Below, piece by piece: positions 3 to 35,234 of a stretch of DNA of 35,696 bases. The stretch covers positions 413,559 through 449,254 of the forward strand of contig KV454014.1 of assembly GCA_001661245.1 (NCBI GenBank). The letters run 5' to 3'. The translations under genes were made by a program, and so were the position numbers. Position 1 is the stretch's first letter, and each line of letters opens with the position of its first letter. The notes below the pieces were generated by a model. It ran no database searches and was not told where the DNA came from. It was given only the letters and a program-made list of their open reading frames with translations. The DNA is from Pachysolen tannophilus NRRL Y-2460. Its lineage: Eukaryota.

Positions 3-1643
3 TCTTTATTTGAATATATAAGACCTTCGTTGGATTATCCGACAAGACCAATTATTACCAATGATTCGTGTACTTTAGCAAGAGAGCATAAAGATTTTTT
101 CGCTTTGTACGATAAAAAAGTTAAAGGAAGGCGACCAGTACTACCAGGAAGAGTTGTTATGGTTTATATTAATGGTAGACGGCATACTTGGGTTGCACTA
201 GACTGGGTAATAAAGAAATTTCTTGAAAATGGTGACAGAATTGTTGTGATTGCCTCTGTTAACCCGATACATGGGGAGGGAAGAAGATCATTTAGTCAAA
301 CTCGTAGTAGATCTAGAAAAAGAGGATTAATTGAAACAAAGAAAAATACTACAGAACATATAAAAGATGTTGCATTAAACATTTTAAAATATTGTCTCTT
401 GTTAGCCGATGAAAATTTAATTGTCAAGATAAATGTGGAATTGTCCGTAGGAACAACAAAAGTAACATTAAAAGATATGTTCAAGTTATATCATCCAACT
501 GTAATAGTAACTGGTACTAAAAGAAATATTGATAGAACTCCGATGGTTGCTTGGAATTCAGCTAAAGTCACAGATAGATTAGTTTCAAGATTCCCTATAC
601 CAGTAATAATGGTTCCATCAAATAATATGGAAATTTTTGAATTTTCATTATTTGCTAAATTGAGGGAAAAATTTGCAAATTTTAATTGTGGAAACGAAGA
701 ATCTAAAGAAAATGTAAATGTTAAAGAGATTATTTCAAGAGGTAAAGACTTTGATTTTGAAAAATTAAATAAAACTTCATTTAATAAACTTATGGATGCC
801 ATAAAAGAGGATAATAAACTTTCATCAGTTTTAAATCCTGGTAATGAGATCAAAGTTAGTAAAAGTAGGAATGAAAATGATGTAGATGATGAGAGTGATG
901 AAAGTGATGCATATTCAAGTGAAAATGATTTGGATGATTCAATCTCGGATGCATTTTCAGAATTGTCAAAGACTTTTTCAGAAAGTGATTCCGTTATGGA
1001 ATTGAAAAAAGCTTGTCATAATATAGAAGTGGATTTGGATAAGAAATTGAAAGATCTTAAATCAAGTGAACCTTCAAAAGATTTGTATAAAGATTTATTA
1101 TCAACTGTTTCTCAGGCATCAAGACAAATGGGTATTAGAATGGCCGAAATCGAAAAAAGTGATGGTATGGGTGCTGCAATTGTTAGAATTATCACTGGTT
1201 TACCCGATAGGAAAGCCAAAAAATCAATGTTGGATGTAGCTGATGATCTGCCTCATCCAGGACTATCAAGATTTAAAACAGCAGGACAAGCAGTTTCAGT
1301 AGTACCCTCAATAAACATCTCAGGAGATCCAACTCTCGATGAGGAACATAACAATAGATTACGGCCAACACGTTCTTCTTTGAAATTCCAACTTAGCAGA
1401 ACAGACTCAGAAAGAAGAAAAATGAAGGGTAAAAATGATAATGATCGTCGGCCGTCAGCCGGAATGTTATTCCCAGACAACAGTGACCCAAATCTAGAAT
1501 TCCACAGAAACAAATTGCAAGTAACTTTCTCATCTCCAAATATAGAAAGCACAACTCACAACAGACGTAAAGTTGATCTGGAAAAGGACAAAATAAGATC
1601 CAAATTTTCACTAAGAAGTCTTTTCAAAAAATATTCCAAATAA
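3..1643 (+). CDS. Universal stress protein (USP/AANH-like) domain protein, 5'-partial
   Basis: The frame is open from the window edge (SLFEYIRPSLDYPTRP...), and the track start at 30 is TTG. Fungal USP-like pattern: VALDWVIKKFLENGDRIVVI...VELSVG...LYHPTVIVTGTK...RLVSRFPIPVIMVP, followed by an acidic low-complexity C-terminus. Confidence 0.7.
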   Translation, partial: SLFEYIRPSLDYPTRPIITNDSCTLAREHKDFFALYDKKVKGRRPVLPGRVVMVYINGRRHTWVALDWVIKKFLENGDRIVVIASVNPIHGEGRRSFSQTRSRSRKRGLIETKKNTTEHIKDVALNILKYCLLLADENLIVKINVELSVGTTKVTLKDMFKLYHPTVIVTGTKRNIDRTPMVAWNSAKVTDRLVSRFPIPVIMVPSNNMEIFEFSLFAKLREKFANFNCGNEESKENVNVKEIISRGKDFDFEKLNKTSFNKLMDAIKEDNKLSSVLNPGNEIKVSKSRNENDVDDESDESDAYSSENDLDDSISDAFSELSKTFSESDSVMELKKACHNIEVDLDKKLKDLKSSEPSKDLYKDLLSTVSQASRQMGIRMAEIEKSDGMGAAIVRIITGLPDRKAKKSMLDVADDLPHPGLSRFKTAGQAVSVVPSINISGDPTLDEEHNNRLRPTRSSLKFQLSRTDSERRKMKGKNDNDRRPSAGMLFPDNSDPNLEFHRNKLQVTFSSPNIESTTHNRRKVDLEKDKIRSKFSLRSLFKKYSK

Positions 1644-11700: not shown

Positions 11701-14412
11701 ATGATACCGCAAAATGCTTACCATTATTCACCTGGAACGGTATTAACTGTTGGATCTCATCGGGCAGTGATTAAGAAATACATTTCTGAAGGAGGATATG
11801 CTCATGTTTATACAGTGGATATTACACCATCTTATAATGGGAGTTCTGTTGCATGTTTGAAAAGAGTTGCAGTGCCTGATAAGGTAACTTTAAATATTTT
11901 AAGGGCAGAAGTTGATGCAATGAAAAGATTGAAAGGACATCGATATATTGTTTCATATATTGATTCTCATGCTGCAAGAATGTCAACAGGCGTTGGATAT
12001 GAAGTATTTGTATTGATGGAATATTGTTCAGGGAATGGGTTGATTGATTTTATGAATACTAGGTTGGTAAATAAATTAACCGAACCTGAAATTTTGAAGA
12101 TAATGTCTGATATTACAGAAGCTCTTTGCATTATGCATGCTTTAAACCCACCATTGATACATAGAGATATCAAGATTGAAAATGTGTTGATATCAGGAAA
12201 TGGTGATTATAAATTATGCGATTTTGGTTCTGCTTCCGGAGTCTTGAGACCTCCGAAAAATATTGAAGAATTTAAAATTTTACAAGAAGATATAATGAGA
12301 CATACTACTGCACAATATAGAGCTCCAGAAATGATTGATTTATATAAAGGTTTCCCAATTGATGAAAAATCGGATATTTGGGCCATGGGTGTTTTCTTAT
12401 ACAAATTATGTTATTATACAACACCTTTTGAAAATAATTCTTTAAATGGTAATGGCCATGCTGGTAATGGTGGAGCAGATTTGGCAATATTGAATGCTAA
12501 ATTCAGTTTTCCTCTTAAACCTGTTTATTCTTCAAGATTGAAAAATGTAATCAAAATCTTATTGACTCCAGATCCAAGATTGAGACCTACTGCACATCAG
12601 TTATTGGAAGAAATATGCAAGATTAGAAATGTTCCAGTACCTGCCATTAAAAAGAAAGAAAATGCTCCTCTGTTGCCAAAGAGGAAAATTCAAAGTTCTT
12701 CATCTTCTCCAATTACTGCGGCCACTACCGCTTCTACCGCTACTTCCGCTACTACTACTTCTACTGCTACTGTTGCCCAGCTGAAACCTTCACCTCCAGT
12801 ACCTAGTAAGGACCCATTTGCTTCAATTGATAGAAGTAAAGTTTTAAATAGTAATAGTACTTCTATATCAGCTCCATCAGCTGATAAGAATAAGAAGATT
12901 ACAAGTACAAAATCAAAAGTTTCGTTACCACACGTGAATAGTTTACCCGAAAAATCAGCATATTTTGATGGTCATCGTTACATATCAACTGAAACTCAAA
13001 CGGACCAGGATGGGTTTATTAGACCAAGACGAATATCACCATCTACATCTTCTCCGCCAAACCAACAGTCACAACAGAGGACATCGCAAGACCTTAAAAG
13101 AAGTCCTCCTAATCAACTCAATCATCACCGGAGACCTGTCAGTATGTATGTTTCTGATAATTATAAAACTTATAGTGGTTCTTCGGATAATATGGAGATT
13201 TTGAAAAATAAGATAACGGGCTCGATGGAAACAGTTGAACTTTCACCAGGATCCAACCAATATATTCAATCAAATATCGAATTTTTAAGAAATTTGAATA
13301 GACAAGATAGTGGTAAATCATGGAGACCTCAAAAAACTGGAGATAGTATTAGTTCCAGGAATGGTGGTGGTTCCATGTCTAGAAATAATACTGGGTTGAG
13401 AAGAATAAGTACTGGGTCTCAGAAAATTAAAAGAAATAGCATTTCAAGTATAAAGAGTATATTTACAGGAGATAAAAAGGAGAAAAAATCTGCTTCAAGT
13501 AGTAGGCATGCAAGTTCAACTCGTGTGAATGAAATGACCGAACATTCATTTAGAAGCAATGATTCTTCTTCTACAAATGGTGCAACATCCATTAATAATA
13601 ATCGATCCACTTCAGCAGATTCTCATTCAGTTTACTCTTCCACATCATCATCTAGTGGATCTTCATTCAGAAAAAGCTCTGATAGTATTTTAGAGATACC
13701 TGAAAAGGAAACTAGCCAATCACCGGTAAGAAAGACTGTTAATTCCAAGACTAAAGCTTCTGATCCTGGATTTTCAAAGATACCAAAGACTGGATCAATT
13801 CAAAAACGTGTACAAATGTTACTCAACCGTAAACAGGATCCACCCCCTGTAAAGACAGCCACCGGTTATGGGAAATATACAAGCTCAGAAGACGTATCAA
13901 CACAACCTCATACAACTTCTTCCTCTACCACATCTTCTAAATCAGAAAACTCGAAATTTAAAAAACCAGAGGTCAAAGTGGGAAACGTGTCCTCGTTAAC
14001 AACATCTTATCATCAGCAACAACAACTATCTCTTTCCAAAAATTCCACTGCATCTACCAACGCTACTATTACTCCACAATCGACTTACGATAAACCAAAT
14101 TATCCAAGTAATCAAACAACCCCTAAAATAGTATCATCCAAACCCCAGATGTCACCATTATCTCTGAAAAATCCACCACCTCCTAAACCGAAGAAACCAG
14201 AGTTTTTAAAATCCCCAAATATCGTACAACATCGTACAAACCATGAAGTGAGGAAAACTTTGTCTCCTAAAGCAGATTCAGGAGGGTTAAGAATTTCTAC
14301 CAAAAAAGAAGCAAATGGGAGAAGATTCAGCAACACAAGTGATTTGAGTATTGATGTGGATGTCGATGATTTAGAAAGACAATTCAGTCTAAAGTTTCCA
14401 AGTGCTGTATAA
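11701..14412 (+). CDS. PRK1: Ark1/Prk1-family (NAK) actin-regulating Ser/Thr kinase
   Basis: ISEGGYAHVY, ACLKRV, HRDIKIEN, DFGSA and TTAQYRAPEMIDLY motifs. The Ser/Thr-rich tail has a PPPPKPKKP SH3-ligand motif and ends DLERQFSLKFPSAV. Confidence 0.88.
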   Translation: MIPQNAYHYSPGTVLTVGSHRAVIKKYISEGGYAHVYTVDITPSYNGSSVACLKRVAVPDKVTLNILRAEVDAMKRLKGHRYIVSYIDSHAARMSTGVGYEVFVLMEYCSGNGLIDFMNTRLVNKLTEPEILKIMSDITEALCIMHALNPPLIHRDIKIENVLISGNGDYKLCDFGSASGVLRPPKNIEEFKILQEDIMRHTTAQYRAPEMIDLYKGFPIDEKSDIWAMGVFLYKLCYYTTPFENNSLNGNGHAGNGGADLAILNAKFSFPLKPVYSSRLKNVIKILLTPDPRLRPTAHQLLEEICKIRNVPVPAIKKKENAPLLPKRKIQSSSSSPITAATTASTATSATTTSTATVAQLKPSPPVPSKDPFASIDRSKVLNSNSTSISAPSADKNKKITSTKSKVSLPHVNSLPEKSAYFDGHRYISTETQTDQDGFIRPRRISPSTSSPPNQQSQQRTSQDLKRSPPNQLNHHRRPVSMYVSDNYKTYSGSSDNMEILKNKITGSMETVELSPGSNQYIQSNIEFLRNLNRQDSGKSWRPQKTGDSISSRNGGGSMSRNNTGLRRISTGSQKIKRNSISSIKSIFTGDKKEKKSASSSRHASSTRVNEMTEHSFRSNDSSSTNGATSINNNRSTSADSHSVYSSTSSSSGSSFRKSSDSILEIPEKETSQSPVRKTVNSKTKASDPGFSKIPKTGSIQKRVQMLLNRKQDPPPVKTATGYGKYTSSEDVSTQPHTTSSSTTSSKSENSKFKKPEVKVGNVSSLTTSYHQQQQLSLSKNSTASTNATITPQSTYDKPNYPSNQTTPKIVSSKPQMSPLSLKNPPPPKPKKPEFLKSPNIVQHRTNHEVRKTLSPKADSGGLRISTKKEANGRRFSNTSDLSIDVDVDDLERQFSLKFPSAV

Positions 14413-19034: not shown

Positions 19035-20749
19035 CTAATTCTTCAAAACTTTTTTAACAATTTGTTCAACTTCATCCCAGTCATCAGTTGGGACTCTAGT
19101 CATTTCGACGTTACCAAAATAGTCCCTAATAGCCATCAATGTTTCATATGATTGTTTATCATGAACAAAAGATACACTTACACCAACTCTACCAAATCTA
19201 CCTGTTCTCCCAATTCTATGTAAATAAGTTGAAGGATCTGGTCTTCCCTGTCTATCAACTGGTAAATCATAATTTACTACCATTGAAACTGATGGGATAT
19301 CTATTCCTCTTGCTAAAACATTTGTGGTGATTAAAACTTTTGATCTACCTTCACGAAAATCATCAATTAATCTATCTCTTTCTGTAGTTTCTAAATCACC
19401 ATGTAATATTGTTACTGTATGTCCTTCTTCTTTCATTTTTTTATATAACATATTTGCAGTTTCTTTTCTTTGAACAAATATAATAGAAGATCCAATAGTT
19501 AATAATCCATATAATTCACACAAGACTGTAAATTTATGATTTTCATCATTACAATCCATATATAATTGTTTTATTGCATCAACATTTAATTCTTCATGTT
19601 TTAATTCTAAAGAATTTGCATTTGGTACAAATTTTTCAGCATATTTTCTAACTTTATCTGGGAAAGTTGCAGAAAATAAAACTAATTGAACATCTTTTTT
19701 TAATAATTTTTTTGCTCTAACACATTGATCACCTAAACCTTGTTGATCCAACATATTATCTGCTTCATCCAAGACAAATATTTTAACTTGACTTGTATCT
19801 ATTTGTTTTCTTCTTGCTAAATCAATAACAGTACCTGGAGTTCCAACAACTATATGAGAAGTTACAGCAGTATCTCTTGGTACAGCATTTGGAACTGCCA
19901 ATTGTGTTTTTATCTTTGTAAATTTACTCATTTCAGCAATAACTTCTAAAGTTTGCCTTGCCAATTCTCTAGCTGGAGATAAACAAATGGCTTGAACTGC
20001 ATTTACATTTTCATCTACTCTTGAAAGCATTGTTAATGAAAAAGCAGCAGTTTTACCAGTACCTGATTGAGATTGTCCAATAAAATTACGAGGAGGACTA
20101 GATAATAATAAAGGTAAAGCTTTTTCTTGAATCTTTGAAGGTTTTTGAAATTTCATTGCATATAAACCTTTTAACAATTCTGGTTTTAATCCTAATTCAT
20201 CAAATGATTTTACAGAATATAATGGAGAATTTGGATCTGCTTGTAAATCAACTAATTTAACTTTAACTTCATATGATGATTTAATAAGGTTAGATTCAAT
20301 TTCAGCTTGACCTTCAGATTCATTTCCATTTCCATCTCCATTTTTAGTAGTAGTTTTTATCAGTTCTTCCTTTGGTTTCTCATCAATAGTATTTCCAGTT
20401 GTTACAATTTTTTTTCCTCCATCTTTCTCAGATCCATTTATTCCATCATCTAATTTAGTTTCTCCCTCTTGTTGTTTTTCCAATGACAACGAAGATAACA
20501 AAGTTGCTGCATCAGTAGCTGCTCTTTCGTCTATATTAAAAAAAAAATACAAAAAATATTAATATCATTCTTTTTTATAAAATAATTAAAACTGAATTTA
20601 ATTTAAGCGCCGTTTAAATATATATATAAATCTTGATTTATTTTTTTTTTTGGATCCAATTACAAATCAATAAAATACTCAACCCATCATCAAAGGCGCT
20701 TTCAAAAAATCAAATCAATTCACTCATTCAATAATAACTTACCAGACAT
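19035..20749 (-). CDS. DBP5: DEAD-box mRNA export helicase; exons 20749-20743 and 20530-19035 (500 aa)
   Basis: [28 protein letters not shown] and [10 protein letters not shown] motifs. ATG TCT G|GTAAGT...TAG|AC GAA splices in frame to give MSDERAA. Confidence 0.96.
20531..20742 (-). other. Spliceosomal intron in DBP5 (212 nt)
   Basis: GTAAGT donor, TATTAAT putative branchpoint (20564-20558), T-rich tract and TAG acceptor. Splicing restores an ATG start. Confidence 0.88.
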
Positions 20750-22470: not shown

Positions 22471-22974
22471 ATTTTATAACATTTGTTTTTTTTTTGTTTT
22501 TCTTTCTTTATTGTTCCCATCCAAAAAAATTTCAATTTTCTGTATATATTATTAGGTATGATTTTAATTCCATAATAAAAGCATATATTACTTAAATTCA
22601 AATGTAACAAATTCCCTTACACGTTGATATAATGAAGTCTGCCTTAAAAAGGACAGTAAAGCAAGAAAATAAAAATAATAAAAATAAAAAGAAGAAAAAA
22701 AAAAAAATAATAATAAAAAGATGGAAAAGAAAAAAGAAACTTTATAGTAAAACAAAAATTGTTAAATAAAAAAAGAGAGATGGAAAAATCACCCTCTATA
22801 GAAGACAATAACACCTGTAAAATAAAAATTCCAACAACGACGAAAACTATTACTAAAAGAAGATAAATAAAATCAAAATAAAATATATATAAAAAAAAAA
22901 AAAAAAAGAAAAAAAAGAAGAAGTAAATAGAAAAAAAAAAAAAAGCACCACAACTTAAATTTTTCTTCTTTTAC

Positions 22975-25686
22975 TTAACCTTTTCTTCTTATACTTTTAA
23001 CCCTATTGACTAAAGATTTCTTTCTACCTAAACCAGCACCCAAGTTGGTGTTTGCATCATCAATAATTGCAGTCTTTGATGCAGGTGCACCATCAAGGAA
23101 AGTGGAACTACCTAAACCTAGTGTAGTACTTCCATGAACAGGTGCTTGCTTGGTATTTGAATCAAATTGAATTATAGAAGGATCTGGACCTATTGTTGCT
23201 AAGGTGGCCTGAGATTTAGCAACTTTATCATTTAAATATAATGGATGTCCAACAGCAATTGCAGGAGGCAGCGGTGGTACAATAGGCAGTGGTAATCCTT
23301 GTGGTTTTCTAAGTATTGATGCAATTGGTGCAGATGATGTTGTATATATTTTATCTCCATCATCATCGTTATTAAAACCAAAAGCATAATTTATTTGCTG
23401 TGATTTAATATTAATAGGCCCTGTACCTTTAATAGTTGAATTTGGACCATCTACTGGAAATGCCAGAACAGGTGCATCTTTCTTACCTTTATTTCTTTGT
23501 GGAGTACAAGCATCAAATGGACCGTCATGATGGAAACTACCACCACCGAAAAAACCTGTAACATCCAACTTATCAATGGTATCAACGTTTTTAGATTTCA
23601 GAGTAACAGAATCTTTTCTTGATAATGATGATTTTCCATCTTTATTTGAAGAAGAACGATGGCGACTACTTCTATGTTCGCGATCACCAGTCAGATCTTT
23701 TCTTGAGCTTGAATGACGATGATGTCTTGACGAAGATGAAGTATAACGCTCACGATCACCATCACTATTTGATCTATGTTCCCGATTACTTGTTGTATGA
23801 TGATGTTCACGTCTTGAACTACCACGAACAGTAGCATCTTTTCTTCTTGAACTTGATACTAACTCATCATAATCTTCCTTTTCACGTGGATAACTACCAT
23901 TCCTAGCCAACTTTGGACCTACAATTTCTTCATAAGTTGGTGGTAAATCACCATTCCCATTACCTGTTGCCCTTGTAACTGGTGGTGGTGGCGAAACAAA
24001 ATCATCTTCAAATGAATAATTACGATAAATCGGTGACATTGAAGGCGACGTGCTTCTTTGAGGCGCGTGACTGCTGCCTGTTGAACTTATAGTTAATGCG
24101 TCAGCAAAAGGATTATTTGAATGTTTTGTTGGGTATGACATACTGTTTTAAAAAAAATAAAATAAAGAGTTAATATGAATAATGCCTTGAGGTGAAAATG
24201 AAAACACAAATCAAATCAAATCAAAAATAAAAAAAAAAATAAAAATAAAAATAATTGACGAAATTAACCTCTAACTTGACTGATTGTAATTTATTATAAT
24301 TATGGGACCCTAATAAAGAATGTTCTCAACAACTTTGCTTGTTATAAAATATGTATATGTTTTCGTGTGACAAAACAAATCAACTTTTATGAATGATGAT
24401 GAATAAATGAAAGTAAAGCAAAAAAAAATAGATAAAAATAAAAAAAAAAAAAAAAAAAAATAAGATCAACTATCCTCTCCTCTCCTCTTTTTATTGATAT
24501 AATGGAAAATCGATTGATTAATGAATATATATAAATATATATATCTATGATATATTATTGAAATTGTTTAATATAAAGTGATTATAATATGGAATCTAAA
24601 TCTTTCTTTTTACTTTTGTTTTAAATTTAGAAATTTGGGGGAAAACAAAGAAAATTGCCAAAAATGGGAAATTGGTACGCGCAAACACTACCAATGATAA
24701 TTCGCTTGCAATAAAAGAAATTGATGTTTATGATGATAATGATGATAATGATGAGAACGGAAACAAGGATGAGGATTAGTATGAGGATGAGATGATTTTA
24801 TATATCTTTATGACTAAAAAAAAAATATGTTTCTATCTTTATCTTATTATCAAGTATTTGTTCAACATTCATTAGTTTCATTGCTGTCTTGTGTTAGATT
24901 TCCGTTTTCTTTTATTCGTGACCGTTTATTTCCTTATTTTCGCTTAAAAAAGTAAAAAAACTAGAAAAGTGAGGCTATGACATAACAAGAAGAAGAAGAT
25001 AATGATGATGATATTGATATTGATATTGATGAATGAATGACACACTATATAAAAAAAAGCTAATTTTTCTTTCTTTCTTTCTTTGCTTTTCTTTCCCAAT
25101 GTGTGTTGATTTGATTGCTGTTGTTATCCTTTAGGTCCCTGTAATTATCATAAGATACAAAAGTGAGTTAGTTAACTAAGGAAAAAAAAGAAAAAAAATT
25201 TTGTACTTACGTAGTTGCTCCACCTGAATTTGAATGTAGTAAATTTGGTCTTCTATTTGATTTATTCATTCTATTAACAGTTAAAGTTGAACTATCGGAA
25301 CCGGTTCTAAATGGTTTTGAAGGTCTTTGAGGCTTAATATATATATCATCTGAATATAAGTCATCTTCTTTAAATTCCCCTTCATCTGCTAAAGTCTCCA
25401 ATTCTTGATTTTTAGTAACCCACTCTTCAAATGAATGAGTATTAATTGATACTCTATTTTTTACAAGCCTAGACCCCGGGTCATTTCTTCTATTATTATT
25501 ATTATTAGTTTGTTTGATCTCTGTTATTGTAGGAGTAGATAAAGAATGTGTCGACAGTCTATAATTGGCTAATCCATTTTGTACTTGATTTTGTTGTTGT
25601 GGTCTGAATGGATTATTTGTTGAAAGTCTTCTTCCTGATCCAGCCGAGGAGTGGGACAAATTCGAATGACTATACATTGATGCCAT
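22975..25686 (-). CDS. PAL1: Pal1-family endocytic/morphogenesis protein; full-length form exons 25686-25211 and 24142-22975 (547 aa)
   Basis: Exon 2 holds the Pal1 domain (KNVDTIDKLDVTG..GGSFHHDGPFDAC, AFPVDGPNSTI, T.GLGSSTFLDGAPAS, LGRKKSL) plus LPPTY. Exon 1 has STNNPFR and FEEWVTKNQ, matching the Pal1 N-terminus as I recall it. AC|GTAAGT...CAG|T ATG joins in frame. Confidence 0.88.
24143..25210 (-). other. PAL1 long intron (1068 nt, distal acceptor)
   Basis: GTAAGT donor at 25210, TATTAAC branchpoint at 24175-24169, T-rich tract and CAG at 24145-24143. The phase-2 junction is in frame. Confidence 0.82.
25139..25210 (-). other. PAL1 candidate short intron (72 nt, proximal acceptor)
   Basis: Same donor, with TAACTAAC at 25174-25167. 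The first downstream AG is TACAG, ending at 25139. Confidence 0.55.
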
Positions 25687-26177
25687 TACTTGTGGGGACA
25701 AATCAAAAAAAAAATCAAAAAAAAAGGGTAATTATTAATTTTCTATTATTAATATTAATGTCCAGAATAATGCGATATATGCTATTGTCTTGTTTTGTTT
25801 TATTTTAATTTTTTTTTTTCCAACTATCTTAATTGATTCATTTAATAATGACTAAGGGAAGAAAAAAACAAATATGCTTATAAACGAATGGAAAACAAAA
25901 CAAAATTGTTCTGGTTTTTTGTTAATAATTTATCAATATCCAACTTGATTATTAACTAACTACAGATATTAAAACCAAGAAAATAAAATTAGAATTTAAA
26001 AAAAAAAAAAAAAAATAAAATTTTTCTTTCTATCAAGATGAAAAGTTGATAAAATGTAAATATTAATTAAATTACCATTGAACCTTTGAACCTTACAAAC
26101 CGGTGAAAATTTTTTGACATTGGTAAAAATAAACAAAAACAACTCTTACCCTTTTAGGAAGAAAGTGGAAACCAAAG

Positions 26178-26183: not shown

Positions 26184-27141
26184 CAAGAATTTTTACGTGT
26201 ATAATAAGCAATCTATAAATATATATATATATATATATGGATTGATAGATATTGGAAAAGAATTCGAAAGTCAAGAGATCAGATCTAATTACAACTTGCA
26301 TTGAAAGAGCCGAAAATTATTAGTCTTTTGGAGAGAAGAACTTTGATTTTCGTTATAAAAAAAAAAAAAAAAAAAAATTTTTTTTTTTTTTTCCCTTCAT
26401 ACTTTATTATTATTTTGAATTTAAACCCTTATTTATTTCCCTTTTTTCGCATAGATGATCTAGAATACTTACTACTTTCTAATCTTAGCTTTAACGGGTA
26501 TGTAACTGTCGACGTGTCAACGAAACAGAAAATGCCGTTCAGGTACAAAAGATACATAAATAATATAAAAGAGAACGCTTTATACAGATGATAACTTGAG
26601 CAACGTAAGCACTACTGAAACTTCTATTCAAGATATATCTCAAGACGTTAGATTTTTAAGCGTTTTCTTACCTTGAACTAAAAAATCTTTTTCCGGGCGG
26701 CTTTTCCTGTTAAATTTTACGGTATTTGAGGTGCCGATTAAATAAATAATAAATCTATTACTTTCTTTTTGTAAAAATATTAAAACTACTTCCGGGAATC
26801 TGAATCTATCTTTTTGATCCGATTTTTCCTTTGTTGCCATCTAGTAGTAACTCGGCTTCTGGACAATTATATAAATATATATAAATAAATATATATATAT
26901 ACATATATGTATATATATATGTATTTGTATAATAATAAGGCAGTTTCACCTGCTATGTTTTATATAACAGGCTATGCTAAGACATTAATTTCTCAAACTA
27001 AATCAAATTGATCAGGTGAAAATTTTTATGATTTAAATCTAATAAATTAGTAAAATTGTACAAGACTTAGTACGGAGAGGAAGGGCATACGCCTAAAGTT
27101 TCTTTCTTTCTCTGAAAAAAAAAAAAAAAAAAAATTTTTTT

Positions 27142-27930
27142 NNNNNNNNNNNNNNNNNNNNNNNNNNNNNNNNNNNNNNNNNNNNNNNNNNNNNNNNNNN
27201 NNNNNNNNNNNNNNNNNNNNNNNNNNNNNNNNNNNNNNNNNNNNNNNNNNNNNNNNNNNNNNNNNNNNNNNNNNNNNNNNNNNNNNNNNNNNNNNNNNNN
27301 NNNNNNNNNNNNNNNNNNNNNNNNNNNNNNNNNNNNNNNNNNNNNNNNNNNNNNNNNNNNNNNNNNNNNNNNNNNNNNNNNNNNNNNNNNNNNNNNNNNN
27401 NNNNNNNNNNNNNNNNNNNNNNNNNNNNNNNNNNNNNNNNNNNNNNNNNNNNNNNNNNNNNNNNNNNNNNNNNNNNNNNNNNNNNNNNNNNNNNNNNNNN
27501 NNNNNNNNNNNNNNNNNNNNNNNNNNNNNNNNNNNNNNNNNNNNNNNNNNNNNNNNNNNNNNNNNNNNNNNNNNNNNNNNNNNNNNNNNNNNNNNNNNNN
27601 NNNNNNNNNNNNNNNNNNNNNNNNNNNNNNNNNNNNNNNNNNNNNNNNNNNNNNNNNNNNNNNNNNNNNNNNNNNNNNNNNNNNNNNNNNNNNNNNNNNN
27701 NNNNNNNNNNNNNNNNNNNNNNNNNNNNNNNNNNNNNNNNNNNNNNNNNNNNNNNNNNNNNNNNNNNNNNNNNNNNNNNNNNNNNNNNNNNNNNNNNNNN
27801 NNNNNNNNNNNNNNNNNNNNNNNNNNNNNNNNNNNNNNNNNNNNNNNNNNNNNNNNNNNNNNNNNNNNNNNNNNNNNNNNNNNNNNNNNNNNNNNNNNNN
27901 NNNNNNNNNNNNNNNNNNNNNNNNNNNNNN
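27142..27930. other. Assembly gap (789 N)
   Basis: Run of N flanked by poly(A)/poly(T) tracts. Confidence 1.
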
Positions 27931-29491
27931 NAAAAAAAAAAAAAAAATTTAGGAATGAAATAAAGATTTTTTTTTCCATATTACTATTTCATGATACAAC
28001 TACAGCAGCTCTATATTTAAAAAAATTATTTTGCTTATATCTCTCAGCCAAGTATTAAAGCCATAGGCTTTTTCAATTGAACTCAATTCAATTCAATTCA
28101 ACTCGCAATTCCTTCCTATTCATCATTATATAATAATATATTGTAAAGACGGAAAATGGAATTTGGAAAAGTAATATAAATACGCCCCTGATGCATGTGA
28201 CGTATTCCAAACTGTATGATACTTTGCATTAGTGTTTTATGCATTACTGTAAACTTCAGTCGTCATGTCAATCGTCATCTGCGCTCTTAAAAAGTATTCA
28301 ATTCAGTTTGGAGTTGAATCATTCAAGAGACATATTTTAGTTTGGGTTGTGTTGTGTTGTGTACACAATTCGTCCAAAAAAAAAAAAAAATTTTTTTTTT
28401 TTTTAGTCGGAAATTGAAGCTTCTTTTCCTAAATGAATAATATTTCCATGAATTCTTTTGATATAATAATAATTTCTTTTTCTTTTATCCTACTCCCACT
28501 CAATCTCCATTCAAGAAATTTAAAAAATTATTGTCGAATTTAGAGTTTTTCTTTATTGATGTCTTATTCAGCAGATATTTGAATAAAGTTCTATTAAACT
28601 CAATTTCGACTTGGCCAAAAAAAAAAAAAATTAAGGCATGAGATATAATTTAAATATTAATGAATGCATGTAAGACATATTTCTCGGGCAGAAGATAACT
28701 TTCTACCAAGAAAAAATAAATAAAAAAAAAAAACAGTCTTTGGATACTATGGATATTAAGTATAAAATTACATTATGAGAAAAAAAATTTTTTTATTTTC
28801 TTTAAAAAATCCAAGAACTCCCGCTGAATTGTTGGAAATGAGAATTCGTTCTATATTTTTAATGAAAAAACTTAGTGCAATAATAATAATAATAATGATA
28901 ATAAAAGGAAAATTGGAGTAGACATTGAACTGAAGAATAATTTGATTGATCTTACATAATGTTTTTTCACATTTCTACTTTTATTTGTGAATCATTATCA
29001 AAACTTTTTTGATACACTTAAACGAGATCTCGTTTATGGACCAAAGACGTAGATTCTTTTTGTATTTACTTTTATATGCAAAAACTCTTATTAAAATTGG
29101 TATGAATAACAAAGCAAGCAGGTCAAAATTCTGGAATGTATTAACCAAGAATTCCTTGCAGAACTCAATTTTATGCATCCTGCATGTATTAGTATGCATG
29201 ATAATAGGGCTGCTCCAGACTATGCAAGATTGCTAAAAACTTTGCATTGTGCTCTCAATGAAAGACGCACGCTTAAATATTTGAATCTATGCAATAAGTC
29301 CGAACCCAAAAAAAAATAAAGTAAAATAAAAATAATGAAAAACTATTTAAATCAGTAAAACTAATTGCGAAGAGCAATAATATATTTGCAACTAACGAGT
29401 CACGGCTTTGTTTCGTTTCCCATTGCCACTACTGTTTCTCGAAACAAAATCAGTGATTTCAATCTAAAAGAGTTTATAATAAGGGAAGAAG

Positions 29492-31544: not shown

Positions 31545-33049
31545 ATGAACAATACTGCAAACAGAAACCCATTTGGCATTCGGTAAGTTCTCACTCTTTT
31601 TTTTTTTCATTTTGGCTCGAAACTATTGTCACTCCACGGGAACAATTATCTAACTAACATATAACTAGGTTGCCTTCAATTTCATCATTAACTCATGAAT
31701 CTAATATTAATATTCCAGAAGCAAATTCTTCTTTGCTTAGAAAATTTGATTCACTGAGCGAAAGAAGTTCCAAGAAAGTTGAGGATTCTTCTTATGTTAC
31801 TTGTGCAACTTCTTTAGTGGAATTGGCTCGATCGAATAATGGAGATGGGTTTAGGAAAAATTCCATTATTAAGAGAGAAGAAGATTCGGTTTCCAAGAGT
31901 CCAAGAGAAATCAAGTTTCATTCTTCTTCAACAGATTTAAAAGGAGTATATCATCATAACGAATCTACAGATCAAAGTGTTTCTTCTAATTCTACTCCAG
32001 GGATTCCTCCACTTTCATCCAAATTAACTTCATTTTCATCTTATTCATCACCAAATAATAGCAGCAGTAATAGTAGTGCTAGTGCTAGTGCTAATGCTAG
32101 TCATAATACAGAAATGGGTTATAATGAAAAGTTGTCTAATTCGGTACAAGCACCAAGATCGTTAGTAGCGGCTCCTCCTCCTCCACCACCTCCATCAACA
32201 CTGGTACAATCACCTTATATGATTTCTTATTCGAATAATGCTGCTCCAGCTGCTCCAACTCCAATGTCAACACAAGGGTATTTCCAACCGGTTAATCACC
32301 ACCACCCTCTTTACCCTGGTCAAATTCCTTCCTATCAAATTCCAGCGTCACAATTAAATGATTCTACAATTCCAAAGAGGTCTCAAGTATCAAGACAAAA
32401 TTTACAATGTCAAAGGTGTGGTACTGCAGAGACTCCTGAATGGAGAAGAGGTCCAAATGGTTCAAGAACTTTATGTAATGCTTGTGGGTTATATCATGCT
32501 AAATTGGTCAAGAGAAAAGGTCCAATAGCAGCAGCAGAAGAAATTAAATTTAAAAAGATAAAACCTACAAGAAATTCCAGAAAGAAAAATACAATTAGAA
32601 GAAGTATTGCTATTGGTAATTATCATTATGATCTTATACCACCACTGATCCATGGACCTCAACAACAACCACCAATAGCACCACCACCTCAACATTACCA
32701 TCAAAACGTTAACACTAACGCTAACGCATACCCGCCTCAACCTATATATAACAATGGTACTTCATATTATCAACCGTTACCACATATTCAACTAGCTCAA
32801 CATCAACATCAACCGCAACATCAACATCAACCACAACTTCAACATCATCAACTTCATCATCAATTTCAACATCAACACCAACATCAACATCAACATCCAG
32901 TGACATCGCCATCTAATATATCTCCGCCATCTGTAATGGTACAATTTCAAGTCTCACCAGTTCATTCTTCACTGGTTCAAGGCTTTTCCCAATCCCAACC
33001 ATACACAGTGGGATTTTCTAGACAAAACTTACCACAAACAAGTCCTTGA
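31545..33049 (+). CDS. BRG1: GATA zinc-finger transcription factor, Brg1/Gat2-like; exons 31545-31582 and 31669-33049 (472 aa)
   Basis: C-X2-C-X18-C-X2-C finger CQRCGTAETPEWRRGPNGSRTLCNACGLYHAKLVKRKG..AAEE resembles Candida Brg1. Splicing gives MNNTANRNPFGIRLPSISSL (LPSI motif). The track start at 31670 is TTG. Confidence 0.85.
31583..31668 (+). other. Spliceosomal intron in the GATA factor gene (86 nt)
   Basis: GTAAGT donor, TAACTAAC at 31651-31658 and TAG acceptor. The phase-2 join is in frame. Confidence 0.9.
32798..32897 (+). repeat. Coding (CAACAT)n-type repeat encoding a His/Gln tract
   Basis: QHQHQPQHQHQPQLQHHQLHHQFQHQHQHQHQH in the GATA factor C-terminus. Confidence 0.9.
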
Positions 33050-34645: not shown

Positions 34646-34717
34646 GCCATCCTAGTATAGTGGTAAGTACACCTCGTTGTGGCCGAGGAAACCCAGGTTC
34701 GATTCCCGGGGATGGCA
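34646..34717 (+). tRNA. tRNA-His (GUG), intronless
   Basis: Acceptor stem GCCATCC/GGATGGC, A box TAGTATAGTGG, anticodon arm CCTCG-TTGTGGC-CGAGG (GTG at 34679-34681) and B box GGTTCGATTCC. G-1 is not encoded. Confidence 0.97.
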
Positions 34718-34864: not shown

Positions 34865-34943
34865 ATGACAATCAATGAATTACCTGAACTTTGTACGTAT
34901 TAAACTTAAATACCATATATTAGTATATTTCATGCAAATATAC

Positions 34944-34975
<32 letters not shown>

Positions 34976-35234
34976 GTATATATACTAATAATAATATTTT
35001 TTTTATCAAGTGAGTCATGATGAAATGAAAAAAAATAAAATTCCATTGGCTTATCGTGATAGATGTGCCAAGTTGTTGGTCCCATTGAATAAATGTCGCC
35101 AGGAAGGATGGTACATGCCTTGGAATTGTGTTGAAGAAAGACATGATTATGAAAAATGTCAATATTTGGATTTTAAAAGACGAGTCAAACAATTGGAAGA
35201 GATTAAAGAAAAAAGGGATCTGGCATCTAGCTAA
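34865..35234 (+). CDS. NDUFB7: NADH:ubiquinone oxidoreductase accessory subunit B18/NB8M; exons 34865-34892 and 35011-35234 (83 aa)
   Basis: Spliced product MTINELPELLSHDEMKKNKIPLAYRDRCAKLLVPLNKCRQEGWYMPWNCVEERHDYEKCQYLDFKRRV has the twin CX9C motif and the NDUFB7 pattern. Confidence 0.95.
34893..35010 (+). other. Spliceosomal intron in NDUFB7 (118 nt)
   Basis: GTACGT donor, internal (TA)n tract, TACTAAT at 34983-34989 and AAG acceptor. The phase-1 join is in frame. Confidence 0.9.

What the first reader, a model, noticed from the sequence alone, without database searches (positions are those of the whole stretch)
22975..25686. PAL1: one 5' splice site, two competing 3' splice sites 1 kb apart (candidate alternative splicing)
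Seen: exon 1 ends AC|GTAAGT at 25211/25210. A proximal set (TAACTAAC 25174-25167, TACAG ending 25139) defines a 72-nt intron and gives a 184-aa protein ending TDLKDNNSNQINTHWERKAKKERKKN* (stop 25062-25060). A distal set (TATTAAC 24175-24169, CAG ending 24143) defines a 1068-nt intron and fuses in frame to the Pal1-domain exon (547 aa). Intron retention stops at once, at the TAA inside the donor. Known: NPF motifs bind EH domains, and alternative 3' splice sites making two proteins are documented in budding yeasts for SKI7/HBS1. I do not know of such a report for PAL1. Inference: the short form keeps one NPF and gains a polybasic tail but lacks the Pal1 domain and the LPPTY motif. It could be a competitor isoform or a poison/NMD switch that tunes Pal1 levels. 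As I recall, S. cerevisiae has intronless PAL1 and an intron-containing paralog (YHR097C/PAL2).
Basis: partly seen in the sequence, partly recalled or inferred. Interest (0 to 1): 0.8.

Follow-up and report, generated by a model that had tools for sequence, protein, structure and literature searches.

The report
PAL1 long intron with masked decoy
This is the endocytosis gene PAL1 of the yeast Pachysolen tannophilus; its old 1-kb intron holds a second, nearer splice acceptor that a long RNA helix probably hides, so the proposed alternative splicing is possible but unproven.

Summary
The window is Pachysolen tannophilus. The distal splice (1068-nt intron) is the public gene model PACTADRAFT_50029. 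It is also an ancient phase-2 intron, found at the same position in 7 other budding-yeast PAL genes fetched here and described in print for C. albicans PAL1 and S. cerevisiae PAL2. Exon 1 is homologous to Pal1 N-termini.

The proximal set (AACTAAC, then CAG 29 nt later) is real and is the only ACTAAC in the intron. As a usable short intron it is not shared by the 7 relatives. [quoted passage not shown] The motif also sits inside a 52-bp long-range helix (-41 kcal/mol; 0 of 300 shuffles reach it). That helix pairs it with a segment 85 nt upstream of the distal branchpoint. Such a helix would hide the proximal sites and bring the distal branchpoint near the donor.

A second unexpected feature is that the 727 nt before the exon-2 ATG hold no ATG. 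This is the longest of 1,237 such runs in the window. It hints at an internal promoter making a 388-aa Pal1.

No RNA data could be had, so use of the proximal site remains untested.

The parts
25211..25686 (-). PAL1 exon 1. It starts at ATG 25686, or at ATG 25677 as in the public model. It holds the first NPF motif and ends in phase 2.
   Evidence: P0001 begins MYSHSN. BLASTP to Pal1 N-termini gives E 1e-9 and 4e-5. Of 120 homologues, 28 start with the same MY.H.N...NNPFR motif.
24143..25210 (-). The 1068-nt phase-2 intron of the public model, with GTAAGT donor at 25210-25205.
   Evidence: The junction ...GGATT|MSYPTK is seen in P0001. The same position and phase occur in 7 other PAL-family genes. 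No Rfam family lies in it.
25167..25174 (-). Proximal branchpoint-like TAACTAAC, with branch A at 25168, 42 nt from the donor G. It is the only ACTAAC in the intron.
25139..25141 (-). Proximal CAG acceptor, 29 nt after the proximal branch A. It closes a 72-nt intron.
25060..25138 (-). Reading frame opened by the proximal splice: 25 codons, then TAG at 25062-25060. It contains no GT, so it cannot be a middle exon.
   Evidence: read by eye.
25116..25178 (-). 5' arm of the long-range helix (intron positions 33-95). It covers all 8 nt of the proximal branchpoint and the G of the proximal AG.
   Evidence: (inverted repeat I2).
24261..24334 (-). 3' arm of the long-range helix (intron positions 877-950). 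It ends 85 nt before the distal branchpoint.
   Evidence: The helix has 52 bp (13 GC, 34 AU, 5 GU) and -41.0 kcal/mol. In 300 dinucleotide shuffles the best value was -30.8.
24142..24867 (-). Sense-strand stretch with no ATG, running up to the exon-2 ATG. It holds TATA-like boxes at 24804, 24543 and 24533 and a T21 tract at 24460-24440.
24169..24175 (-). Distal branchpoint TATTAAC, with branch A at 24170, 27 nt before the acceptor G.
   Evidence: Degenerate branchpoints are used elsewhere in the window: TATTAAT in the DBP5-like intron and TACTAAT in the NDUFB7 intron.
24143..24145 (-). Distal CAG acceptor, preceded by a U-rich tract. It is the first AG after the distal branchpoint.
22975..24142 (-). 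PAL1 exon 2. ATG 24141 lies one base after the acceptor. It holds the second NPF, LPPTY and the Pal1 domain, with the stop at 22977-22975.
   Evidence: Pfam PF08316 E 7e-49 at residues 187-359. 99% identity to P0001.

Best explanation
The locus is the single PAL1 gene of Pachysolen tannophilus. It carries the old phase-2 intron that splits the PAL family just before the second NPF motif. The productive splice joins 25211 to 24142 and gives the 544/547-aa protein.

The intron is long, and its 5' part (25178-25116) pairs over 52 bp with a segment (24334-24261) that ends 85 nt upstream of the distal branchpoint. I infer that this helix does two things. It shortens the path from donor to distal branchpoint from about 1035 nt to about 117 nt, as zipper stems do in long S. 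cerevisiae introns. It also buries the AACTAAC/CAG pair, which would otherwise be a good short intron.

The proximal pair is thus best read as a cryptic acceptor set that is normally masked. It also sits at the steric lower limit for donor-to-branchpoint distance. Any use of it would give a transcript with an early stop and about 2 kb of downstream RNA, which is an expected NMD substrate.

Shown here: the sequence features, the homology, the conservation of the intron, and the statistical strength of the helix. Inferred: that the helix forms in the cell, that it masks the proximal sites, and how much proximal splicing leaks through.
For: 1. The public model uses the distal splice.
2. Eight of 8 resolved PAL-family genes have a phase-2 intron at this position: Pachysolen, L003, L004, L005, L006, L007, L012 and L014. 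In the 7 relatives the branchpoint next to the productive acceptor is TACTAAC, or TACTAAT in L012.
3. Passages of PMC10672141 give a 529-nt intron for C. albicans PAL1, with exon 2 starting at Met99 and the second NPF at its start. Passages of PMC6404604 describe S. cerevisiae PAL2 as spliced.
4. TATTAAC fits this species' usage. Other introns in the window use TATTAAT (DBP5-like), TACTAAT (NDUFB7, Pfam E 2.5e-28) and AACTAAC (GATA factor).
5. Helix energy is -41.0 kcal/mol. The same arm against 569 other windows of the same strand gives mean -18.5, sd 5.0, and none but the true partner reaches -41.
6. In 300 dinucleotide shuffles of the rest of the intron the best duplex has mean -22.2 and minimum -30.8; 0 of 300 reach the observed value, z -6.4.
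7. The helix appears in both the MFE and the centroid structure of the whole intron.
8. All 8 nt of TAACTAAC and the G of the proximal AG are paired.
9. Passages of PMC12350175 report that cryptic 3' splice sites in S. cerevisiae introns are enriched in stems, that zipper stems are common in long introns, and that at least 42 nt are needed between donor and branchpoint.
Against: - No transcript data exist here, so neither junction is observed.
- The proximal motif is the only ACTAAC core in the intron. In 6 of the 7 relatives an ACTAAC core marks the true branchpoint (L012 has TACTAAT), so by sequence alone the proximal site looks the stronger.
- The 3' arm is made about 780 nt after the 5' arm, and the 5' part alone has no significant local structure (z -0.33). 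The proximal sites are therefore exposed during transcription, and fast co-transcriptional splicing (recalled knowledge) could use them.
- The total linker of the helix is 32+85 = 117 nt. This exceeds the 85-nt limit in the zipper-stem definition of PMC12350175.
- Equivalent helices are not significant in relatives: L003 6 of 120 shuffles, L004 24 of 120, L012 22 of 120, L006 97 of 120, L007 120 of 120.
- ACTAAC recurs within the first 66 nt of 3 of 8 PAL introns (P 1.6e-4, with the window chosen after seeing the data). This hints that the upstream motif may be kept for a purpose.
Confidence: 0.6

Rival explanations
1. Regulated alternative 3' splice-site choice. The proximal and distal acceptors truly compete. 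The balance is set by transcription speed, temperature or helix stability, and it tunes Pal1 level through an NMD-sensitive unproductive mRNA. Less likely, it yields a 184-aa NPF-only protein.
For: - The proximal set is consensus-like, with ideal spacing of 29 nt and no intervening AG.
- It is transcribed about 780 nt before the masking arm and is unstructured on its own.
- A helix that decides between two acceptors is a ready-made switch.
- ACTAAC lies close to the donor in 3 of 8 PAL-family introns.
- Supplement file 7 of PMC4607428 lists a predicted alternative acceptor 20 nt upstream of the annotated one in S. cerevisiae YHR097C.
- Non-productive alternative sites are widespread in S. cerevisiae, per the title and abstract start of PMC3983031 in the listing.
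Against: - No junction reads are available.
- No comparable short intron exists in the 7 relatives. The upstream ACTAAC is only 14-18 nt from the donor in L003. In L014 neither genome-wide table lists a junction for it.
- The branch A is 42 nt from the donor, at the steric minimum quoted in PMC12350175.
- The tail is low-complexity and has no database counterpart.
- PAL1, PAL2 and YHR097C each occur 0 times in the main text of the survey of proteome-diversifying splicing in budding yeasts, PMC7491326.
Confidence: 0.2
2. An internal promoter inside the intron. Exon 2 would also be transcribed on its own and translated from ATG 24141 into a 388-aa Pal1 that lacks the first NPF region. This can coexist with either splicing model.
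For: - There is no ATG on the sense strand for 727 nt before ATG 24141. This is the longest of 1,237 ATG-to-ATG runs on both strands of the window (next longest 477 and 473), and among the eight longest runs listed for each strand it is the only one that ends at a long ORF.
- Dinucleotide shuffles expect 7.0 ATGs; 2 of 50,000 have none. The block-shuffle P is 5e-5. The other five orderings of A, T and G occur about as expected.
- An in-frame ATG lies 1-7 nt after the acceptor in 6 of 8 resolved genes, but not in L004 or L014.
- ATG-free stretches before that ATG in relatives are 200, 273, 217, 238 and 157 nt, with P 0.027, 0.003, 0.11, 0.049 and 0.14; Fisher's method gives 2.4e-4. L019 gives 306 nt (P 0.012) and L020 112 nt (P 0.35). 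The two genes without the Met give P 0.14 and 0.36.
- TATATAAA at 24804, two TATATATA boxes near 24540 and a T21 tract lie in the stretch.
- 79 of 120 database homologues start a few residues before this NPF, though many of these may be gene models that missed exon 1.
Against: - No start-site data exist.
- A 727-nt leader would be very long for a yeast, and a promoter close to the ATG would not need so long a desert.
- The signal in relatives is modest, and two of the seven P values are above 0.1.
- In S. cerevisiae PAL2 a stop in exon 1 is a null allele (passages of PMC6404604), though that gene has no Met at the start of exon 2.
- AT-rich DNA offers TATA-like words by chance; their excess was not tested.
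Confidence: 0.3
3. Gene fission. The old intron has become an intergenic spacer. The upstream unit makes only a 159- or 184-aa NPF protein and ends near 25050-24900. The Pal1-domain gene runs from its own promoter. TATTAAC...CAG would then be a decaying relic of the old acceptor.
For: - The distal branchpoint is the only one among the 8 genes that has lost the C at position 3, whereas the proximal one is consensus-like.
- TATATA at 25051 and AATAAA at 24930 and 24916 follow the proximal stop.
- The ATG desert precedes exon 2.
Against: - Exon 1 keeps every conserved Pal1 N-terminal block.
- The donor, the phase, the U-rich tract and the first-AG rule at the distal acceptor are all intact.
- The strong helix that brings the donor and distal branchpoint together has no role in two separate genes.
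- TATTAAC-like branchpoints work elsewhere in this genome.
- The terminator-like words were not tested against chance.
Confidence: 0.08
4. The inverted repeat is the pair of ends of a foldback or MITE-like element of about 918 nt that landed in a once-short intron. The proximal branchpoint and acceptor would be accidental passengers in its terminal repeat.
For: Two imperfect inverted arms of 63 and 74 nt flank about 780 nt of AT-rich DNA. Removing 25178-24261 would leave a 150-nt intron, by my arithmetic.
Against: - The arms have no other copy in the 35.7-kb window.
- No target-site duplication is visible by eye.
- Relatives also have long introns at this site: 280-283, 547, 729, 733, 927 and 1082 nt. 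Length is therefore ancestral and needs no insertion.
- The whole genome was not available to count copies.
Confidence: 0.07

Closest known systems
PAL1 of Candida albicans (C3_01890C) and PAL2/YHR097C of S. cerevisiae: intron before the second NPF motif
   Same: Two exons. The first NPF is in exon 1, the intron sits just before the second NPF, and exon 2 opens with Met in C. albicans (passages of PMC10672141). PAL2 has a 5' splice junction just after codon 41 (passages of PMC6404604). The loci fetched here show the same position and phase 2.
   Different: The Pachysolen intron is about 1 kb, against 529 nt (C. albicans, from the paper) and 124 nt (L014). Its productive branchpoint is TATTAAC rather than TACTAAC. 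It also carries a consensus-like branchpoint plus acceptor 37-72 nt from the donor, and a 52-bp long-range helix.
Zipper stems and stems that occlude cryptic 3' splice sites in S. cerevisiae introns (RPS17B, RPS23B; PMC12350175, passages read)
   Same: A stem links the region after the donor to the region before the branchpoint. It starts more than 10 nt from the donor and ends more than 20 nt from the branchpoint. A cryptic YAG lies within the paired region.
   Different: The total linker of 117 nt exceeds the 85-nt limit of that paper's definition. The helix is far longer (52 bp) and spans about 780 nt. It also buries a whole cryptic branchpoint. The evidence here is prediction only, with no probing.
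Non-productive alternative splice sites removed by NMD in S. cerevisiae (PMC3983031), and the alternative acceptor listed for YHR097C (PMC4607428, supplement file 7)
   Same: An alternative acceptor inside the intron leads to an early stop.
   Different: Those sites are seen in RNA-seq. The YHR097C one is 20 nt from the annotated acceptor and shares its branchpoint. Here the two acceptors are 996 nt apart, each with its own branchpoint, and no reads exist.
SKI7/HBS1 and YSH1/SYC1: alternative 3' splice sites giving two proteins in budding yeasts (PMC3597508 seen in a listing only; PMC7491326 passages read)
   Same: One donor, two acceptors, and two reading outcomes.
   Different: In those genes both products are conserved proteins and both acceptors are conserved across species. 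Here the short product has no conserved coding sequence beyond exon 1, and the proximal acceptor is not shared by relatives.
APE2 RNA thermosensor for 3' splice-site choice (recalled, Meyer et al. 2011; the paper itself was not found or read, though the search words occur in papers listed)
   Same: RNA structure decides which AG is used.
   Different: In APE2 the structure lies between one branchpoint and its AGs, over tens of nucleotides. Here it would choose between two branchpoint/AG pairs 1 kb apart.

Membership tests
Pal1 family (Pfam PF08316) | Pal1 domain scoring above the curated cut-off | tested here: met
   Exon 2 scores E 7e-49, 166.5 bits against a cut-off of 25, at residues 187-359.
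Pal1 family (Pfam PF08316) | Two NPF motifs and a PPxY motif upstream of the domain, as in yeast Pal1 and Pal2 | tested here: met
   P0001 has NPF at residues 22 and 166 and PPTY at 223. The paper passages describe the two NPF motifs.
PAL-family conserved intron | Phase-2 intron directly before the second NPF, with an exon 1 homologous to Pal1 N-termini | tested here: met
   Eight of 8 resolved genes are phase 2 at this site. Exon 1 BLASTP gives E 1e-9 and 4e-5.
Alternative 3' splice sites giving two proteins (SKI7/HBS1 type) | Both junctions observed in RNA | not testable with these tools
   No RNA run was listed. The laid runs are genomic contigs.
Alternative 3' splice sites giving two proteins (SKI7/HBS1 type) | Both branchpoint/acceptor sets conserved in relatives | tested here: not met
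   The distal set is conserved in 7 of 7 relatives. No usable proximal set gives a like product in any of them. These relatives are distant; close relatives could not be fetched.
Alternative 3' splice sites giving two proteins (SKI7/HBS1 type) | The short product exists as a recognisable protein | tested here: not met
   No protein of 86-277 aa similar to exon 1 was found; 16 candidates, none with E <= 0.001.
Zipper stem (definition of PMC12350175) | Stem of at least 6 bp, starting at least 10 nt from the donor and ending at least 20 nt from the branchpoint | tested here: met
   The stem has 52 bp, starts 32 nt after the donor and ends 85 nt before TATTAAC.
Zipper stem (definition of PMC12350175) | Total linker of 42-85 nt between the stem, the donor and the branchpoint | tested here: not met
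   The linker is 32+85 = 117 nt. It works like a zipper but falls outside the stated limit.
Zipper stem (definition of PMC12350175) | Formation in vivo, shown by chemical probing | not testable with these tools
   Only thermodynamic prediction and shuffles are available.
NMD-targeted unproductive splice form | Early stop codon with a long downstream region | tested here: met
   The stop is at 25062-25060, followed by about 2.1 kb to the end of the gene.
NMD-targeted unproductive splice form | The junction accumulates in upf mutants | not testable with these tools
   No data are available.
Alternative intronic promoter | AUG-free leader ending at a conserved start codon | tested here: met
   A 727-nt ATG-free run, the longest of 1,237 in the window. 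Met follows the acceptor in 6 of 8 genes.
Alternative intronic promoter | Mapped transcription start inside the intron | not testable with these tools
   No RNA data are available.

The most novel reading that the evidence does not exclude
The Pachysolen PAL1 intron is a three-way control element:
1. A consensus-like branchpoint/acceptor pair near the donor is open to the spliceosome while RNA polymerase covers the next ~780 nt. Its use yields an early-stop, NMD-prone mRNA.
2. Once the 3' arm is made, a 52-bp helix shuts this pair and hands the donor to the distal branchpoint, so output of full-length Pal1 depends on elongation rate or temperature.
3. A promoter inside the intron makes a short Pal1 from the conserved Met.

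The recurrence of AACTAAC close to the donor in 3 of 8 PAL-family introns would then mark an old regulatory decoy branchpoint.
Probability: 0.12. Interest if true: 0.65.

Novelty: new member of a known kind. Interest (0 to 1): 0.4.

Why it matters
The gene and its intron are ordinary and already annotated. The useful result is a clean natural test case. One donor faces two complete branchpoint/acceptor sets 1 kb apart in a budding yeast, with a statistically strong helix placed exactly where it could choose between them. If the helix acts as inferred, it extends the known role of intron stems to distances and sizes not described in S. cerevisiae. Those known roles are bringing splice partners together and hiding cryptic sites.

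The ATG-free kilobase and the Met kept just after the acceptor in several yeast lineages raise a second question that can be tested directly. Do PAL1 genes make a second, N-terminally short endocytic protein from inside their intron?

Tried and rejected
- RNA evidence: no RNA holder was listed. The four runs laid are genomic contigs that run through the intron and show no intron-skipping joint. The one joint listed (22719 to 25705, side 20) lies in low-complexity flanks and is not a splice.
- Whole genome: none is held, so I could derive no genome-wide splice-signal consensus and could not count copies of the arms.
- Earlier findings of this scan: three look-ups returned nothing.
- snoRNA or other RNA gene in the intron: none at gathering threshold. 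There were only two sub-threshold matches, on the opposite strand (E 0.15 and 0.53).
- Three-exon model with 25138-25063 as a middle exon: rejected, because that stretch has no GT.
- Local hairpin hiding the proximal sites before the 3' arm is made: not significant, z -0.33, with 66 of 200 shuffles folding as well.
- Conserved zipper helices in relatives: not significant in 4 of 5 and weak in L003. In one search I compared the best of many windows with single background windows. That comparison is not fair, and replace it.
- Stand-alone exon-1 proteins or a 184-aa model in the protein collection: none.
- Supplements of PMC3983031: file 7 lists only the canonical YHR097C junction. Two supplement files of that paper and one of PMC4607428 are pictures and were not searched.
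- Close relatives of Pachysolen (CUG-Ala clade): none appeared. The best non-self protein hit is 45% identical, and the best metagenome locus is 50% identical over the domain.
Full report
**What is there**

- Exon 1 runs 25686-25211 and the donor GTAAGT is at 25210.
- The proximal set is TAACTAAC at 25174-25167 and CAG ending at 25139, with a stop at 25062-25060.
- The distal set is TATTAAC at 24175-24169 and CAG ending at 24143, followed by ATG at 24141.

The three products have the stated lengths: 159 aa unspliced, 184 aa for the proximal splice, and 547 aa for the distal splice (and my count).

Pfam finds the Pal1 domain only in exon 2 (E 7e-49). The best database hit to exon 2 is PACTADRAFT_50029 of Pachysolen tannophilus NRRL Y-2460, 544 aa and 99% identical. 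Its sequence reads ...NSGGATT MSYPTK.... That is the distal splice, started from the second ATG (25677). The 1% difference is CTG read as Ala (table 26). The distal intron is therefore already in the public annotation.

**The intron is old**

Among the 120 best homologues, 28 begin MY.H.N...NNPFR like exon 1. A further 79 begin a few residues before the second NPF, like exon 2.

A scan of metagenome contigs with a Pal1 alignment returned 80 loci. In L003, L004, L005, L006, L007 (L008 is the same gene) and L012, an exon-1-like ORF is followed by a donor, an intron and an exon 2 that starts just before the second NPF. The donors are GTATGT, GTAAGT or GTACGT. The introns are 280-283, 547, 729, 733, 927 and 1082 nt.

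L013/L014/L016 carry a PAL2-type gene with 41 codons plus 2 nt, GTATGT, a 124-nt intron and then NNPF. This matches the description of S. cerevisiae YHR097C in passages of PMC6404604. L010/L011 carry a colinear gene without an intron. By recall it is S. cerevisiae PAL1.

All 8 resolved genes are phase 2 at this site, by my count. Passages of PMC10672141 say that C. albicans PAL1 has a 529-nt intron, that exon 2 starts with Met99, that the second NPF is at its start, and that this architecture is kept in most Candida orthologues. Exon 1 of the window matches Pal1 N-termini by BLASTP (E 1e-9 and 4e-5).

**The proximal set**

- It is the only ACTAAC core in the intron. In 6 of the 7 relatives the ACTAAC core marks the branchpoint next to the productive acceptor; L012 has TACTAAT.
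- Shuffles place an ACTAAC plus AG at 30-100 nt from the donor in 3.1% of cases.
- No relative has a usable proximal pair that would give a similar product.
- ACTAAC does lie within 66 nt of the donor in 3 of 8 introns: Pachysolen at +37, L014 at +38, and L003 at +14 and +18. The Poisson-binomial P is 1.6e-4. I chose the window after seeing the data, so this is a lead only.
- For YHR097C, supplement file 7 of PMC3983031 lists only the canonical junction. Supplement file 7 of PMC4607428 lists a predicted intron ending 20 nt short of the annotated one. That is a different alternative acceptor from the one the upstream motif would imply.
- The branch A of the Pachysolen proximal site is 42 nt from the donor G. 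Passages of PMC12350175 state that at least 42 nt are needed between donor and branchpoint in S. cerevisiae spliceosome models.

**The distal set is plausible in this species**

Three other introns in the window are supported by reading frame and by Pfam hits to their downstream exons:

| Gene | Window span | Donor | Branchpoint | Acceptor |
|---|---|---|---|---|
| DBP5-like | 20742-20531 | GTAAGT | TATTAAT | TAG |
| GATA factor | 31583-31668 | GTAAGT | AACTAAC | TAG |
| NDUFB7 | 34893-35010 | GTACGT | TACTAAT | AAG |

The DBP5 N-terminus match is from recall. TATTAAC differs from TACTAAC by a C-to-U change that keeps a G-U pair with U2. That point is textbook knowledge and was not tested here.

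**A long-range helix**

- The whole-intron fold pairs positions 34-95 with about 880-960, in both the MFE and the centroid structure.
- The inverted-repeat search lists the core of this pairing as I2.
- RNAduplex gives -41.0 kcal/mol for 25178-25116 with 24334-24261: 52 pairs, 13 GC, 34 AU and 5 GU.
- Against 569 other 120-nt windows of the same strand the mean is -18.5 (sd 5.0), and only the true partner reaches -41.
- Against 300 dinucleotide shuffles of the rest of the intron, the best duplex has mean -22.2 and minimum -30.8, so 0 of 300 reach the observed value (z -6.4).
- All 8 nt of TAACTAAC and the G of the proximal AG are paired. The helix starts 32 nt after the donor and ends 85 nt before TATTAAC.

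This is the layout of a zipper stem that also hides a cryptic site. Both patterns are reported for S. cerevisiae introns (PMC12350175 passages). The 117-nt linker exceeds that paper's 85-nt limit.

Several results weaken the reading. The 5' part alone is not structured (z -0.33). Relatives show no comparable helix: L003 6 of 120 shuffles, the others 22 to 120 of 120. The arms have no other copy in the window.

**An ATG-free kilobase**

No ATG occurs on the sense strand from 24867 to 24142 (checked by eye). This 727-nt run is the longest of 1,237 runs on both strands of the window; the next longest are 477 and 473. Among the eight longest runs listed for each strand, it is the only one that ends at a long ORF. 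Dinucleotide shuffles expect 7.0 ATGs, and 2 of 50,000 have none. The other orderings of A, T and G are near expectation.

In 6 of 8 genes an in-frame ATG follows the acceptor within 1-7 nt. ATG-free stretches before it in relatives are moderately long: P 0.027, 0.003, 0.11, 0.049, 0.14, 0.012 and 0.35. The two genes without the Met give P 0.14 and 0.36. Fisher's method on the first five gives 2.4e-4.

I read this as a hint of transcripts that start inside the intron and are translated from the exon-2 Met. It is an inference with no RNA support. The length of the desert is more than a nearby promoter would need.

**Verdict**

The distal splice is the known, conserved, productive one. The proximal set is a real and good-looking cryptic site. 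Its use is untested, and the sequence context suggests it is masked.

No report of PAL1 or PAL2 alternative isoforms was found in three searches and one survey:
-;
- the term counts in PMC7491326, where PAL1, PAL2 and YHR097C each occur 0 times in the main text.

The exception is the supplement row. Supplements I could not read are two picture files of PMC3983031 and one of PMC4607428. The supplements of PMC7491326 were not opened. Any of these might bear on that claim.

Noticed in passing
L014 5621-5745; L003 5259-5300: ACTAAC lies close to the donor in two other PAL-family introns. L014 has GTAACTAACAG at +38 in the S. cerevisiae-type PAL2 intron. L003 has GACTAACTAACAG at +14. With Pachysolen that makes 3 of 8 introns (P 1.6e-4, window chosen after the fact). 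This may be an old decoy or helper branchpoint.
   Followed up: partly
window 24141; L003 5995; L005 604; L006 1442; L007 5869; L012 1220: An in-frame ATG sits 1-7 nt after the intron acceptor in 6 of 8 PAL-family genes. Its spacing to the NPF motif varies (3-9 residues). That pattern fits a start codon better than a structural residue.
   Followed up: partly
window 20531-20742 (-): A DBP5-like DEAD-box gene has a 7-nt first exon (ATGTCTG) and a 212-nt intron with a degenerate branchpoint, TATTAAT. This shows that the species tolerates weak branchpoints.
   Followed up: partly
window 34893-35010 (+): An NDUFB7 (B18) gene has an intron that uses GTACGT, TACTAAT and an AAG acceptor. Pfam hit PF05676, E 2.5e-28, lies on the second exon.
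   Followed up: partly
window 31546-31668 (+): A GATA zinc-finger gene has a short first exon (MNNTANRNPFGIR) and an 86-nt intron with GTAAGT, AACTAAC and TAG.
   Followed up: partly
window about 27100-27950: A run of N (a masked stretch or assembly gap) produces the false 310-aa ORFs at 27047-27988.
   Followed up: no
window 24815, 25181, 25716, 25726-25730: Genomic contigs of four public runs differ from the window. They have one extra A (+ strand) in three homopolymer runs and three substitutions just upstream of the PAL1 start. None of these touches a coding frame or a splice signal.
   Followed up: no
window 11701-14409 (+): A 903-aa protein kinase has an N-terminal kinase domain and a long low-complexity tail. 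By recall it resembles the Ark/Prk actin-regulating kinases of endocytosis. It lies 8.5 kb from PAL1.
   Followed up: no
window 159-1643 (+): A 494-aa ORF has no Pfam family at E <= 0.001.
   Followed up: no
window 34646-34717 (+): One tRNA gene (Rfam RF00005, 60 bits).
   Followed up: no
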